DNA of 64,000 bases from Eledone cirrhosa (Eukaryota), in NCBI GenBank assembly GCA_964016885.1, contig OZ024752.1, positions 11,160,001 through 11,224,000 of the forward strand, in the 5' to 3' direction. Of this stretch, positions 47,258 to 57,545 are shown piece after piece. The position numbers were made by a program, and so were the translations under genes. Under the pieces are notes generated by a model, which had not been told where the DNA came from, did not search any database, and was given only the letters and a program-made list of their open reading frames with translations. Numbering within the stretch: position 1 is the stretch's first letter; each line of letters opens with the position of its first letter.

Positions 47258-47260
<3 letters not shown>

Positions 47261-47535
47261 CACAAAGAGAAGTGTGTTACACAGTGAGATGTGTGTAAAG
47301 AATTATTACGAGTGTTTTTACCGTTTTTACCGTTTCAGCAAAATATAGTTATAAGGTTTGTGATTTAAAACTCTAATCCAGAGATTTGATTCTGAATTGG
47401 TTTTTTTCTATTTAATTGCTACCCTGTAGATATTGTTCCCTATACAGTAACGGTAAAAACACTCGTAATAATTCTTTACACACATCTCACTGTGTAACAC
47501 ACATCTCACTGTGTAACACACTTCTCTTTGTGTAA
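47258..47535. repeat. Long inverted repeat next to (TA)n with a right-hand tail to ~47642
   Basis: ttacacaaagagaagtgtgttacacagtgagatgtgtgtaaagaattattacgagtgtttttaccgtt and its reverse complement at 47449-47535, which has an internal duplication. Confidence 0.85.
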
Positions 47536-51917: not shown

Positions 51918-51935
51918 CATACAATTATATATAGA

Positions 51936-52032
51936 GAATTAGAAATAGAAGCCAGGACTATCCGTCATCAATGGTCTACTAGCCATCATAGATCCACTGA
52001 TGACGGATAGTCCTGGGTTCTATTTCTAATTC
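51936..52032. repeat. Fold-back hairpin with a half-deleted hammerhead in both arms
   Basis: gaattagaaatagaagccaggactatccgtcatca ... ctgatgacggatagtcctgggttctatttctaattc. Confidence 0.75.
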
Positions 52033-52105
52033 TTCATTTTTATATATATATATCACATTTGCTATAACATACCTCGCCGTTTTTCAATTATATATATATA
52101 TATAT

Positions 52106-52231
52106 ATTTTATAGAAGGAGCTTCTACAGGACTAGTACTGTTTCATTCAGATGAAATCTTCAGGAAGAGCTTCCTGAAGAGTTCATCTGAATGAAACAGT
52201 ACTAGTCCTGTAGAAGCTCCTTCTATAAAAT
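52106..52231. ncRNA. Palindromic twin hammerhead (complete type I motif on both strands), with tail to ~52305
   Basis: Plus strand: gagcttc CTGAAGA gttc-atct-gaat GAAA cag-tactagtc-ctg TA gaagctc. The 62-bp arms differ by one mismatch around a 2-nt loop, so the minus strand carries the same motif. Confidence 0.88.
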
Positions 52232-52487
52232 AAAATAAATGTTACTCTGCCATGTATTAAGTACCTTACTTACTGTGGTTATCCCCGACTCAACCCGGGA
52301 CCTACGTATATATATATATATATATACATATGCATACACACACACACACACAGTATTGAAAGGATCAGAGGCCATAACCAGTTGATATAGGTTTATTTAT
52401 ACAGATTGGTAGATTGTTGAATGCTTCATTTTAGCTGCATCGCAGCCGACCGACCTAATATCGCTCGCACGTGCCTGGTCAGTTAGC

Positions 52488-52716: not shown

Positions 52717-53370
52717 TCTCTCTCTCTATATATATATATGTGTGTGTGTGTGTGTGGCTATATATATATATAGAGGCGTTGGATTGGAAGTATCGGTAGA
52801 GGGTCGGACATAAATATATATATAAGATAGTTACTTTAGATCATCTCTATTTATTTTATTATATATATTTCGAAGATGCAAGACTTATGTATAACATAAT
52901 CAAAACATGTTCTCGTCAGACCAAATGGATAGGAGTTGAAGGTTTCTTGTGATATTCTGGCGGCCAAACGAGCTGGACAGATCGGTGACAACCAAGCATA
53001 TGATTCGAATATATAATATATATATATATATAGTTCAATAAATAAACAGAGAACAAAAAACAGTGAAGCATTACAAATGGTATGGTTTTTAGTTTCACGC
53101 TTATAAAGTGTCTTTTGCTGAAGTGTAAATGTATATCGAGGAAGGATATAAACATCCATGAGAGAAATTAAAATATAGCTGACACTCATTTTGTCACGAC
53201 GTATAGGATTAGAAGTGCAGTAAGTCAGCTTTTGGCCAATTGTAAACCTACAACAAATGACGCAATTGCAAGTAAATTATTTAGAATATCAATGGTGGAA
53301 AACCTGGACAAATTATGACAGAGTTGGAGTTTTCATACACTGGAATTTATTCCAGAATTATGAAATACGC

Positions 53371-53994
53371 CCAAGCAGCGAAAATTCAAAGAAACACAGT
53401 CTGCCGTTATAATCATGGCTGTGATTATAATCATGACTGTGTTTTGGGACCGGAAGGGAGTTTGTTGGTCGACTTTATGCCTGCTGGGACCACAATAAAC
53501 GCTGACAGGTACTGTGAAACACTGAAAAAAACTCAGAAGGGCAATTCAGAACCGGAGAAGAGGAATGTTGAGCAAGGGCGTAAGCATTCTCCACGACAAC
53601 GCTCGACTACACGTCGCCCGTCAAACCATCCCTCTCCTGCAAAACGTTGGTTGGAACATCATCACCCACCCCACCCACCATATAGTCCGGACTTGGCACC
53701 TAGTGACTACCTCCTGTTCGCTAAGTTGAAAGAACATTTGGCCGGAAGGCGATTCTGCTCCGACGAAGAGGTGAAAGATGATGTTCAACGTTTCCTGGAG
53801 GATATGGCGGCGAGCTGGCATGACAGGGGCATACAAAAACTGCCACAGCGTCTACAAAAATGCATCGACCAAAATGGCGATTATGTAGAAAAATAAATAA
53901 TTGTTCAACCTTTAAAATTATGTAAATATTATAGAAAATAAATGGTTGTTTGTATTTCTAAAAAAAGGAGACCCTACTTTTTGGATTGCCCTCG
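53371..53994 (+). mobile_element. Mariner (DD34D) transposon, 5'-truncated and frameshifted
   Basis: TVFWD..GSLLVDFMPAGTTINADRYCETLKK/LRRAIQNRRRGMLSKGVSILHDNAR../PYSPDLAPSDYLLFAKLKEHLAG...KCIDQNGDYVEK*. The right end is ctactttttggattgccctcg|TA. Confidence 0.92.
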
Positions 53995-55027
53995 TACTAA
54001 CCAAACATATTTTGTAAATATATATATATATACACAACACAAAGGAAGGTTTAGTATAGTAACGTGTTCCTCCACTGACCTAGGGTAATCCACACATTCA
54101 AGAAGCTCAAATTAAAGTTATTGCCAAGGAGAACGAGAAATATATCTGATCAAAAATTATATATTCATGCCAAATGATGAGAATTTACCTTTGAAGGAGT
54201 CGGCGGAATAATCCATATATATATTCTGATAAAAGAGACAAACCGAATCTGAGTATTCAAAGAAGAATTACTATCAACAATAACAGGTACCTTGGAAAGG
54301 ATTTAAAATCTTCCTGTGAATATATAATCAATAAGCCAGAACTTAGAAATATACATAACAAACACTAAATAACTACGACAGCCTTGTTACGTAAAATATT
54401 TTCAATAGAATGTAAATTCCCAAATCACATCTAAACACTGCAACTTTCGAAGGCCCATATAGCAGCGCTCAGTGATGCGGTTCAAGCACGTAATAAACAT
54501 AAGACTACTCGAAATGACAATAATTATGAACATAAGAGCAATAATAATACTTTTCTCATAACAATTCGACACCTAGTCACTTGTCTATAATCAAGTCAAT
54601 CAACTATACTTTCCATCCAGTATTGATTTCTATAGACGTGCGAGAGATAAAAGGTAAAATTGGTCCCGATAGTATTCGGACACAAGATCACAGGCGCTGA
54701 TATATAATGATACAAATCTTATACAGAGTCATTCTACTGAATCAGCGATCGTTATGCACATGATATGAGAAATAACATTTAAACGTTTGTCCAAGAAGCC
54801 AAATTTCCATCCTATCATATTGTGTTAGGTTATATATTCTCTTCTTCATGTCAGGTAGAATTGTTCAAATCAGTGTTATGGAATTTCAAAGTGTTTCGGA
54901 CTTTATACTTTGATATAAACCCCACCCAGTATCACACAAAAATAGTCATTAGATTTCGTAAATATTATTACGAATACTTAATACACTATTCCATAGAAAT
55001 ATCGCAACAGACATACACACACACGTA

Positions 55028-55197
55028 AAGTTTAATATAGGAATGGTTTCTACAGGGCTAGAACTGTTTAATTCAAAAGAAATAATCAGGCCTTTCTGAT
55101 GATATCTTTTTAATGAAACAGTTGTAGTCCTGTAGAAGTCATTTCTATATTAAACTTGATGTTTACACCCTCCTAATATACTGAGTACCTTATGTAC
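55028..55197. ncRNA. Diverged twin-hammerhead hairpin of the 52106 family
   Basis: Arms aagtttaatatag.../...ctatattaaactt. Plus strand: cttt CTGATGA ... GAAA cag-ttgtagtc-ctg TA gaag, with weak stem II. The tail contains tgagtacctta. Confidence 0.7.
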
Positions 55198-55199
55198 TC

Positions 55200-55242
<43 letters not shown>

Positions 55243-55243
55243 A

Positions 55244-55450
55244 TTAGTACATCTACCAACATATGTGTACAGATGTACACTCATGCTAGCAAATATACAA
55301 GTTATGTCTTAGTACCTATGTGGTTCTATGCAGGTGAATGCAGAACAATTATATGAAAGACGTAAAATAAGAAAAATTTTAAAAATTAAAAATCAACTTA
55401 CTTAGTAAGTAAGTTGATTTTAAATTTTTTTAATTTTCTTATTTTACGTC

Positions 55451-55458
<8 letters not shown>
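55244..55458 (-). mobile_element. Short fold-back copy (55351-55458) plus tail of the 56872-57545 family
   Basis: 55244-55349 is the reverse complement of 57436-57541. The hairpin arms aaagacgtaaaataagaaaa...aacttactta match the ends of the 56872 element. Confidence 0.8.
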
Positions 55459-55488
<30 letters not shown>

Positions 55489-55591
55489 TTATTTACGTAG
55501 AGCACGGAGCGTATGTGCATAAACACACATGTACCGTGTCGTATTTTGACAGTATTGTATAAGCTCAATGTACGAGAACAGAGCCGTTATA

Positions 55592-55818
55592 TGTAAAAGA
55601 AATCAAAGAACGCTTACATACTCAAACAGTTTTTATTTGCTGACAATGTTTCATCCATACCGTTTGGCAGGAATCATCAGAGCTTAATAAACAAAATGTT
55701 TATTATTATGTGTTTTGTTTATTAAGCTCTGATGATTTCTGCCCAACGGTATGGATGAAACATTGTCAGCAAATAAAAACTGTTTGAGTATGTAAGCGTT
55801 CTTTTGATTTCTTTTACA
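55592..55818. ncRNA. Twin-hammerhead hairpin (~105-bp arms) with left tail 55495-55591
   Basis: Plus strand: tttattaagct CTGATGA t-ttc-tgcc-caac-ggta-t-gga-t GAAA cattg TC agcaAATAAA. The mirror copy lies on the minus strand (tcatcag at 55674-55680). Confidence 0.85.
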
Positions 55819-55842
55819 CACACATATATATATATATATAAT

Positions 55843-55975
55843 ATAAAAATGGCTTCTATAGGACTAGAAATCTTTCATTGGGGAGAAATCATCAGGAAGT
55901 CTAGACCTGTCGAATCCATTTCTATAGTAAATATTTATACTCTGCTGTGTATTGAGTACATTTAGGAAATCCACT
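55843..55975. mobile_element. Partly deleted member of the 52106 hairpin family
   Basis: atggcttctataggactag...tttcatt...aatcatcaggaag gives a minus-strand hammerhead remnant. A short right arm and the tail tactctgctgtgtattgagtac follow. Confidence 0.7.
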
Positions 55976-56292
55976 CATATATATGTATATATATATACCA
56001 TACTGAGAACAATTGTTTCACCTTATGCGGATCTTCAGCTCGGACTGGTCATGGTTTTACGAAACAGGAAGAACAACCGTATGAACGCGCATGCGCAGAA
56101 ACGGTCACTTCACCCAAGCGATACAAAACCACAGGCGGGACTGGGTGCTCTACCACTACGGATATCGCCTTCCACTGTCCTACCGCTATATATATAAGTA
56201 GATGGGATATTCAATGTGTTGGTAATTCAACAAATATAAATGTTTATAACTGATTCAGATGTTTATAACTGAGACAGATTTTCTGGAGTATA

Positions 56293-56839
56293 ATATTCAA
56301 TGATATTAAATAAATTGAAACTATATTTATAAAACCATATTTATTCTATTATATATATTTCAAGGGTACCAAAACTTTGGTACGCCTTCATCAGATAAAA
56401 TATGAGGTGAGTTTTATGACATAACCAAGGAAAATACCTTAACGGTTCAAGTTTTCCTGGGATAGTGAAGGGATAAGAGAAGAACAGTAAGATATTTCAA
56501 ATTGTTAAGATGAGAATGCAAATGAGTATGCAATATCATAATTATTTAAATTCTCCATAGCGTCTAAAATAATGTTTTTTCAGCCCGTTACCTCAACGTC
56601 ATTTGCATACTCATTTGCATACTCATCTTAACAATTTGAAATATCTGACTTTTCTTCCCTTATCCCTTCACTATCCAAGGAAAATTTGAACCGTAAAGGT
56701 ATTTTCCTTGGTTATGACAACATTTATAAAACACACTTCGTTTTTATCTGATGAAGGCGTACCAGAGTTTGGTACCCTTGAAATATATATAATAGAGTAA
56801 ATATGGTTTTATAAATATAGTCTCCATTTATTTAATATC

Positions 56840-56848
<9 letters not shown>
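56293..56848. ncRNA. Large fold-back (~240-bp arms) with a hammerhead in each arm
   Basis: Plus strand 56743-56796: tttat CTGATGA agg-c-gtacca-gagtt-tggtac-c-ctt GAAA tatata TA ataga. The minus-strand mirror lies at ~56346-56399. Confidence 0.85.
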
Positions 56849-56871
<23 letters not shown>

Positions 56872-56878
<7 letters not shown>

Positions 56879-57545
56879 CGTAAAATAAGAAAATTTTTTT
56901 TTTTTAAATTTTTTAAAAAAATTAACTTACTTACTTAAATTTTCACTCCAACTAATTAGTTTCTACAATGGGATAAAGACAGTTACGTAATGAACCGTTG
57001 AGAATTTCATTGCGTCATCAGGGAGAGCAAACCTGCCAAAACCACTTCTAAAAATTTTTTTTGGGGGTGTTAGTAGGCGCTTGTCATCTTACCACCTCAT
57101 TCCTACTGACTAGCCTCTGTGTCACGTGATTGATTCTTTAGAATCGGCCATATGATCAGTGGCAGTGAGAATTTTCAGTAGCTGGAATCCAGTCCTCGAT
57201 AGCTGTTCCATTTACCGAATTATTATTATTTTTATATGAGTCGCCAGTGTCCGCGCATCGCCTGGAGACTCGGCTGAGAATGACCTCCCTGATGACGCAG
57301 TGAAATTCTCAACGGTTCATTACGTAACTGTCTTTATCCCATTGCAGAAACTAATTAGTTGGAGTGAAAATTTAAGTAAGTTAATTTTTTTTTTTTTTTT
57401 TTTTTTAAATTTTCATATTTTACGTCTTTTATATTATTGTTCTGCATTCTCCTGCATCGAACCACCTAGGAACTATGACATAACCTGTGTATTTGCTGGC
57501 ATTGGCGTACATCTGTGCGCTTATGTTAGTAGATATATTAAATTA
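56872..57545. ncRNA. Fold-back element with twin long-stem-II hammerheads and a right tail
   Basis: Plus strand 57285-57364: ctcc CTGATGA c-gcagtg-[37 nt]-cattgc-a GAAA ctaattag TT ggag. The minus-strand mirror lies at 56946-57025. Confidence 0.82.

What the first reader, a model, noticed from the sequence alone, without database searches (positions are those of the whole stretch)
55028..57545. Hotspot: six fold-back units from four families within 2.5 kb
Seen: hairpins at 55028, 55351, 55592, 55843, 56293 and 56872, mostly separated by short TA runs. Two belong to the 52106 family and two to the 56872 family, the latter in opposite orientations (55244-55349 is the inverse of 57436-57541). 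Inference: repeated insertion into TA tracts left by earlier events builds a ribozyme and dsRNA cluster. If intronic, it could cleave or heavily structure a host pre-mRNA.
Basis: partly seen in the sequence, partly recalled or inferred. Interest (0 to 1): 0.72.

Follow-up and report, generated by a model that had tools for sequence, protein, structure and literature searches.

The report
Penelope retroelement pile-up in TA repeat
Seven short stubs of Penelope-like jumping genes, from five families and of different apparent ages, lie end to end in one TA repeat; the pile-up is real but of a kind common in this genome, and the self-cutting RNA motifs inside the hairpins are predicted to be locked shut rather than able to cut a host RNA.

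Summary
The six fold-backs are real, and a seventh unit (56001-56186) was missed. Seven insertions from five families fill 2368 of 2518 bases, separated only by TA-type runs. Families C, D, E (and more weakly A) lead upstream to reverse-transcriptase/GIY-YIG-type coding remnants elsewhere in the genome; family B is a 558-nt tandem retrozyme with a covarying type I hammerhead. Each unit is a tail-less inverted arm joined at a variable point to a tail-bearing arm: the published Penelope-like-element (PLE) layout. Best-hit identities of 86-99% point to serial arrival. Density exceeds Poisson (0.16 fold-backs/kb in 790 kb; none of 79 stretches reached five per 2.5 kb), but clustering at TA runs is genome-wide and some hundreds of equal clusters are expected. 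Hammerheads inside fold-backs are 42-116 kcal/mol disfavoured by folding; only one minimal motif is unpaired. No host exon was detected, and transcription could not be tested. This scan noted the same PLE hairpin layout many times on other DNA. Ordinary, with a useful mechanistic side-light.

The parts
55028..55199 (+). Unit A2 (52106 family, older subfamily): fold-back 55028-55157 plus one-sided tail; hammerhead core at 55096(+), predicted site after 55134, sequestered
   Evidence: best other genomic hit 92%; left junction on one 1205-nt DNA contig 53960-55141 with no differences
55200..55243 (.). (TA)n(GA)n spacer
55244..55459 (-). Unit B1 (retrozyme-type family B, second subfamily): tail 55244-55349, short fold-back 55350-55459 that stops short of the hammerhead
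   Evidence: best other hits 99%, several paired at 539-544 nt spacing
55460..55491 (.). (TA)n spacer
55492..55818 (-). Unit C: tail 55492-55591, fold-back 55592-55818; minimal hammerhead cores at 55729(+) and 55680(-), both sequestered
   Evidence: arm 99% and tail 100% to other copies; coding remnants upstream of longer copies L305, L315, L317
55819..55839 (.). (CA)n(TA)n spacer
55840..55977 (+). Unit A3 (52106 family, decayed): short fold-back with the hammerhead core (55895, - strand) in its loop, stem III mismatched, plus tail
   Evidence: fails descriptor; best other hit 86-88%
56001..56186 (-).
   Evidence: RT and EN remnants directly upstream of copies L308, L309, L313
56189..56848 (-). 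Unit D: tail about 56189-56292, fold-back 56293-56848; hammerhead cores at 56748(+) and 56394(-), both sequestered
   Evidence: L118 shows inverted arm - RT/EN remnants - direct arm - tail
56849..56868 (.). (TA)n spacer
56869..57545 (+). Unit B2: inverted arm 56869-57025 joined to a nearly full monomer (57026-57545) of a 558-nt tandem retrozyme; type I hammerhead cores at 57289(+) and 57021(-), both sequestered
   Evidence: 98% to a tandem array on contig C28
52105..52310 (+). Unit A1, the young reference copy of family A outside the cluster

Best explanation
The stretch is a row of seven 5'-truncated stubs of Penelope-like elements and a PLE-style retrozyme that likely inserted one after another into the same TA microsatellite, each leaving TA on both sides as a target for the next, with their hammerheads predicted to be locked inside the hairpins. 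Shown: the units, their families, TA spacers, coding relatives, the layout (tail-less inverted arm, tail-bearing direct arm, variable junction) and the spread of divergence. Inferred: the element's GIY-YIG endonuclease cuts both strands of a TA run; each cut end primes a cDNA on the element RNA, one from the pLTR end and one from the tail end; the two truncated cDNAs join, often at a short microhomology, so the hairpin is a by-product made anew at each insertion. Predicted: on either strand the antisense arm is transcribed before the hammerhead, which is then paired and cannot fold. The cluster is the upper tail of a genome-wide habit, not a built device.
For: Coding relatives: L118 has inverted D arm, RT/EN remnants, direct arm and tail; C and E bodies lead to RT then EN remnants on the same strand (L305 RT hits RVT_1 at 7e-5; YIG motifs read). 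Layout: 25 of 29 tail-anchored A copies have an adjacent inverted arm, 0 of 25 carry the tail, 19 distinct junctions; inverted arm reaches further upstream in 4, direct arm in 8, within 3 nt in 13; at least 7 of 29 C copies show an inverted arm starting at +88/+92. Arms with no shared sequence: unit E, L223. TA targeting. Clustering is general: 0.29 fold-backs/kb around 77 family copies versus 0.154 in 59 unselected stretches; 15 of 73 neighbour gaps <=300 nt. Folding: active fold costs 42-82 kcal/mol (A, C, D) and 106-116 (B) in the unit versus 2-8 in isolation. Literature: inverted 5'-truncated copy, one-sided tail and (TA)n bias (PMC8557442, passages); two RT start sites bounding the tail, both strands cut and extended, predicted dimer (PMC11167929, parts 1-2 of 4).
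Against: Pfam GIY-YIG did not hit the C, D or E endonuclease fragments and RVT_1 was below its cut-off; the 120 listed of 237 homologues of the C RT carry no informative name. Family A's link to a coding parent is one 26%-identity EN piece; no coding partner was found for B. Rfam reported no hammerhead. One C locus (L222) shows an inverted match that includes the tail about 1 kb upstream, and 2 of 29 A copies have no inverted arm. Tails are 65-110 nt, longer than the published 30-40. Best-hit identity is a rough age proxy. The correlation of fold-backs with TA tracts (rho 0.58) does not show that insertions create the targets. No empty-site allele was seen.
Confidence: 0.85

Rival explanations
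1. Same elements and same pile-up, but each hairpin forms by self-priming (snap-back) of one cDNA or RNA, as proposed for Adineta Penelope palindromes, with the tail removed from one arm afterwards.
For: Many A junctions are near-perfect palindromes centred in the hammerhead (13 of 25 arms end within 3 nt of each other); self-priming on an antisense template is the published reading (PMC3846280, passages).
Against: Self-copying cannot give a tail-less arm that reaches further upstream than the tail-bearing arm (4 of 25 A copies, C copies L214, L218, L223, L227, window unit D) or arms with no shared sequence (unit E, L223) without a second use of the RNA.
Confidence: 0.15
2. The cluster is a functional ribozyme/dsRNA module in an intron that cleaves or structures a host pre-mRNA.
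For: 710 predicted base pairs in six hairpins; eight strand-specific hammerhead matches in 2.5 kb versus 0.023 expected per shuffled region for the short-loop descriptor; density in the upper tail.
Against: Seven of the eight matches are sequestered; the free one (E, - strand) is a minimal motif with a 2-bp stem III, 9.6 kcal/mol from its fold. No host-protein domain in 127 window ORFs or 56 flank ORFs beyond transposon proteins and three weak sub-cut-off hits. Units are young family members, 86-99% identical to dispersed copies, with no sign of locus-specific conservation. No A-to-G polarity between arms.
Confidence: 0.05
3. The units are TA-targeting MITEs (non-autonomous Tc1/mariner derivatives) whose arms are terminal inverted repeats.
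For: Long inverted arms, TA flanks, high copy number; a mariner fragment lies at 53285-53893.
Against: One-sided tails, junctions that differ copy to copy, tandem monomers, hammerheads, and RT/EN remnants continuous with the arms.
Confidence: 0.02

Closest known systems
EN+ Penelope-like element insertions with inverted 5'-truncated copy and one-sided tail (Craig et al. 2021, PMC8557442; Adineta Pen2a, PMC3846280; passages read)
   Same: Inverted arm adjacent to a direct pLTR, tail on one end only, hammerhead in the pLTR, RT followed by C-terminal GIY-YIG-type endonuclease, (TA)n bias
   Different: Here most copies are reduced to 100-700-nt stubs, tails are 65-110 nt, and five families sit end to end in one TA tract; clade not determined
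Poseidon PAc in vitro mechanism (Frangieh et al. 2024, PMC11167929; parts 1-2 of 4 read)
   Same: Two RT start sites bounding the tail, both target strands cut and extended, AT-rich target, uncleaved RNA used as template (arms here run through the predicted cleavage site)
   Different: The parts read report no difference in start site between strands and do not model inverted insertions; genomic copies here show tail-less inverted plus tail-bearing direct arms in 25 of 25 A fold-backs
Animal non-LTR retrozymes (Cervera and de la Pena 2020, PMC7229834, passages; Li et al. 2026, 10.64898/2026.07.22.740005, abstract and part 1 of 5)
   Same: Family B: non-coding tandem monomers each with a type I hammerhead, PLE-like insertion
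   Different: Monomer 558 nt, above the 170-400 nt quoted; dispersed copies insert as fold-backs; RNA circles not tested
Type-SGC/CSG permuted hammerheads (Eckert et al. 2023, PMC10085705, passages)
   Same: Considered for family B because its core first failed my descriptor
   Different: B has the ordinary C-G-S (type I) order with a 50-nt stem/loop II; not permuted

Membership tests
EN+ Penelope-like elements | RT followed by C-terminal GIY-YIG endonuclease in a parent continuous with the terminal repeat | tested here: met
   D (L118, L119), C (L305, L315, L317), E (L308). Frames are broken; Pfam support is weak. A: one EN piece only; B: none found
EN+ Penelope-like elements | Inverted 5'-truncated copy next to the direct pLTR | tested here: met
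   25 of 29 A copies; at least 7 of 29 C copies; all window units
EN+ Penelope-like elements | Tail on one end only | tested here: met
   0 of 25 A inverted arms carry it; lengths 65-110 nt exceed the published 30-40; one possible exception in C (L222)
EN+ Penelope-like elements | Type I hammerhead in the pLTR | tested here: met
   Own descriptor: A, C, D, E. Not detected by Rfam
EN+ Penelope-like elements | Target-site duplication | not testable with these tools
   Both flanks are TA runs, so a duplication cannot be read
Hydra / Neptune / Nematis clade | RT phylogeny and linker or CCHH motifs against reference sequences | not tested
   No reference set was aligned; earlier notes of this scan name Hydra for families in this genome, unchecked here
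Non-LTR retrozyme (family B) | Tandem non-coding monomers, each with a type I hammerhead | tested here: met
   558-nt period on C28; 96.6% of cells paired, 4 of 15 pairs changed on both sides in 6 hand-picked variants (few sequences, structure derived from them)
Non-LTR retrozyme (family B) | Self-cleavage and circular RNA | not testable with these tools
   Needs RNA and bench assay
Permuted (SGC/CSG) hammerhead | Non-circular order of blocks C, G, S | tested here: not met
   Family B reads C-G-S
Tc1/mariner MITE | Symmetric ends, fixed internal sequence, DDE parent | tested here: not met
   Asymmetric ends, 19 junctions in 25 copies, RT/EN parents

The most novel reading that the evidence does not exclude
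These stubs record a fixed division of labour in Penelope-type insertion: one cut strand always primes at the pLTR end and the other at the tail end, the two cDNAs joining head to head. That would replace the published self-priming model, automatically lock every hammerhead inside a hairpin, and, as each insertion splits one TA run into two, let TA microsatellites grow self-feeding stacks of unrelated families, with several hundred thousand fold-backs in this genome.
Probability: 0.45. Interest if true: 0.42.

Novelty: new member of a known kind. Interest (0 to 1): 0.2.

Why it matters
As a locus it matters little: it is one of some hundreds of similar stacks. As a record it is useful: seven insertions of five families show one rule for how PLE inverted ends form, which is an open step in the PLE cycle, and explain why a genome can hold very many hammerheads (54 descriptor hits in 590 kb) with many of them predicted silent. 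If such stacks are transcribed they would be a large dsRNA source for editing or small-RNA pathways; that is untested.

Tried and rejected
Rfam at gathering score (window) and at E<=10 (cluster; B monomers): no hammerhead, only generic hairpin models. RNA evidence: no RNA holder listed; this is no evidence on expression. Contigs of three DNA runs of one sample confirmed the left junction but were too fragmented in the repeats to show an empty-site allele; the listed joints are explained by copies elsewhere. Host gene search by Pfam on 127 of 136 window ORFs (9 inside the LINE ORF left out) and 56 flank ORFs of at least 75 aa: transposon proteins only; short exons would be missed. I first read family B's core as atypical because my descriptor capped loop II at 45 nt; widening it gave an ordinary type I fold, and the permuted-hammerhead lead was rejected. 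A-to-G editing footprint between arms: none. A short shared tail motif: 4 matches versus 1.66 expected, 8 of 100 shuffles as high, not significant. Paper searches for the double-priming reading or for PLE stacks in microsatellites found nothing specific (0 papers; 1 unrelated review; no octopus PLE hairpin paper in the listings); the library lacks most subscription papers and no supplements were read, so absence from print is not shown. Orthologous loci in related species are not held.

Full report
Setting. The window is G000:C12:11160001-11224000 of a 3.0-Gb, TA-rich animal assembly. That it is octopus-like is my recall plus earlier notes of this scan, not a result of my calls.

Observation. 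Self-comparison gives fold-backs at 55028-55157, 55350-55459, 55592-55818, 56293-56848 and 56869-57434, with arm identities of 85.5, 92.7, 97.2, 90.3 and 86.1%, and a decayed one at 55840-55935 (27 nt, 81.5%). The inverse match 55244-55392 / 57393-57541 is 83%. A seventh unit, 56001-56186, belongs to a fifth family (3388 first-look candidates). The seven units cover 2368 of 2518 bases, and the six spacers are TA, TA/GA or CA/TA runs of 10-44 nt. One DNA contig spans the unique left flank into the first unit without differences.

What the units are. Each family has hundreds to thousands of first-look candidates (lower bounds, not copy numbers). Longer copies lead to coding remnants. For D, L118 reads inverted arm, RT and endonuclease pieces, direct arm, tail. 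For C, RT then EN pieces lie upstream of a long non-coding body in L305, L315 and L317. For E, RT and EN pieces end directly at the element in L308, EN pieces in L309 and L313. For A there is one EN C-terminal piece 1.8 kb along an inverted arm (L301, 26% to the D EN). Pfam support is weak: RVT_1 at 7e-5 for L305 and no GIY-YIG hit for C, D or E fragments; homologues of the C RT are unnamed (237 hits, 120 listed). B is a 558-nt monomer in a tandem array on C28; no coding partner was found.

Hammerheads. Rfam finds none. A type I descriptor finds six strand-specific matches in the cluster (A2+, C+, C-, D+, D-, E-) against 0.023 per region in 300 shuffles of base pairs-of-two. Allowing a longer loop II adds B2+ and B2-. 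Six hand-picked B variants keep 96.6% of cells paired, with both-side changes in 4 of 15 pairs; the set is small and the structure was read from it. A further pairing between GAGAA upstream of stem I and loop II is seen by eye in the alignment and was not counted. B1 has no core and A3 has a broken stem III.

Layout. Anchoring on the tail alone avoids choosing hairpins. Of 29 A copies (self hit dropped), 25 have an adjacent inverted arm, 2 run beyond view and 2 have none; the inverted arms end at +38 to +65 relative to the core, and none includes the tail (+65 to +130); there are 19 distinct junctions; the inverted arm reaches further upstream in 4, the direct arm in 8, and 13 are within 3 nt. 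In 24 of 25 the direct arm starts between -6 and +22, inside the hammerhead and upstream of the predicted cleavage site, so the template was uncut RNA. Of 29 C copies at least 7 show an inverted arm starting at +88/+92, one shows an inverted match with tail 1 kb away, and the rest show none within 1.4 kb or were cut from the printout; B inverted arms often start at +151 (some B loci overlap). Unit E and L223 have arms with no sequence in common. This is the PLE layout of PMC8557442 and PMC3846280 (passages). It fits the two start sites and two-strand priming of PMC11167929 (parts 1-2 of 4) better than self-priming, because a self-copy cannot outrun or fail to overlap its template. That step is inference.

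Is it a hotspot? It finds five in the cluster: Poisson P 6e-5, negative binomial 5e-4, about 75 or 560 bins genome-wide. Not all 127 are shown to be PLEs. Clustering is general: 77 of 127 have (TA)>=4 within 30 nt of an end versus 646 of 3950 control intervals; 15 of 73 neighbour gaps are <=300 nt versus about 5% under Poisson (not corrected for the 10-kb limit); counts track TA tracts (rho 0.58). Around 77 family copies the density is 0.29/kb and the largest group was the anchor plus three. Tail ends abut TA in 74 of 77 terminal copies versus 9.6% of random windows. Best other hits are A3 86-88%, A2 92%, D 93%, E 96%, B2 98%, B1 99%, C 99% (40 candidates scored each), so B1 and C likely landed between the older A2 and A3.

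Could it cut or structure a host RNA? The six hairpins hold 710 predicted pairs. Because arms are head to head, the hammerhead's complement is transcribed first on either strand. Forcing the active fold costs 42-82 kcal/mol in A, C and D units and 114-116 in B2 (38-111 in nascent RNA), versus 2-8 for isolated motifs and 5.4 in an array monomer (pseudoknots and dimers not modelled). Only E is unpaired, a minimal motif with a palindromic stem III of the kind described as needing a dimer (PMC7229834, passages). Pfam found only transposon proteins and three weak hits in 183 ORFs over 114 kb. Intronic position and transcription stay open.

Verdict. A real upper-tail stack of known elements. Earlier notes of this scan reached the same two-copy reading on other DNA; I read them after forming mine and count them as no support. 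An octopus repeat survey reports recently active Penelope families and 100-kb TE hotspots, not such stacks, in the passages read (PMC13282606). Interest is low.

Noticed in passing
family A loci L182-L210; window 52105-52232: Junctions crowd inside the hammerhead (-8 to +22 from the core), often at short self-complementary words; family C shows no such crowding. May mark RT stalling or the RNA's start.
   Followed up: partly
L114-L116 (G000:C28:45.83-45.86 Mb): Array of 558-nt family B monomers over about 20 kb, each with an unsequestered type I hammerhead; a candidate active retrozyme source. A 539-544-nt sister subfamily exists.
   Followed up: partly
window 57276-57280 with 57306-57310; L123, L149, L337, L050: GAGAA upstream of stem I can pair with UUCUC in loop II across B variants, a likely loop I/II tertiary helix; seen by eye, not counted.
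   Followed up: partly
window 12665-15766 (-): Uninterrupted 1034-aa APE endonuclease plus RT LINE frame; the same LINE follows a family A tail in L108/L302.
   Followed up: no
window 53285-53893 (+): Decayed mariner transposase fragment.
   Followed up: no
window 6011, 28976, 37545, 42708 (+); fold-backs 37370-37688, 47259-47515, 51935-52033: Further hammerhead cores and fold-backs of other or related families.
   Followed up: no
L164:456-3366: Tandem array of about 482-nt units, each with a minimal hammerhead: another retrozyme-like family.
   Followed up: no
L117:1364-3349: An 80-nt piece of the family C body amplified in tandem more than 20 times inside one copy.
   Followed up: no
L120:6529-7143 (-): Host nucleotide-sugar transporter exon 1.3 kb from a 3-kb family C fold-back; a better place than this window to test effects on a host gene.
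   Followed up: no
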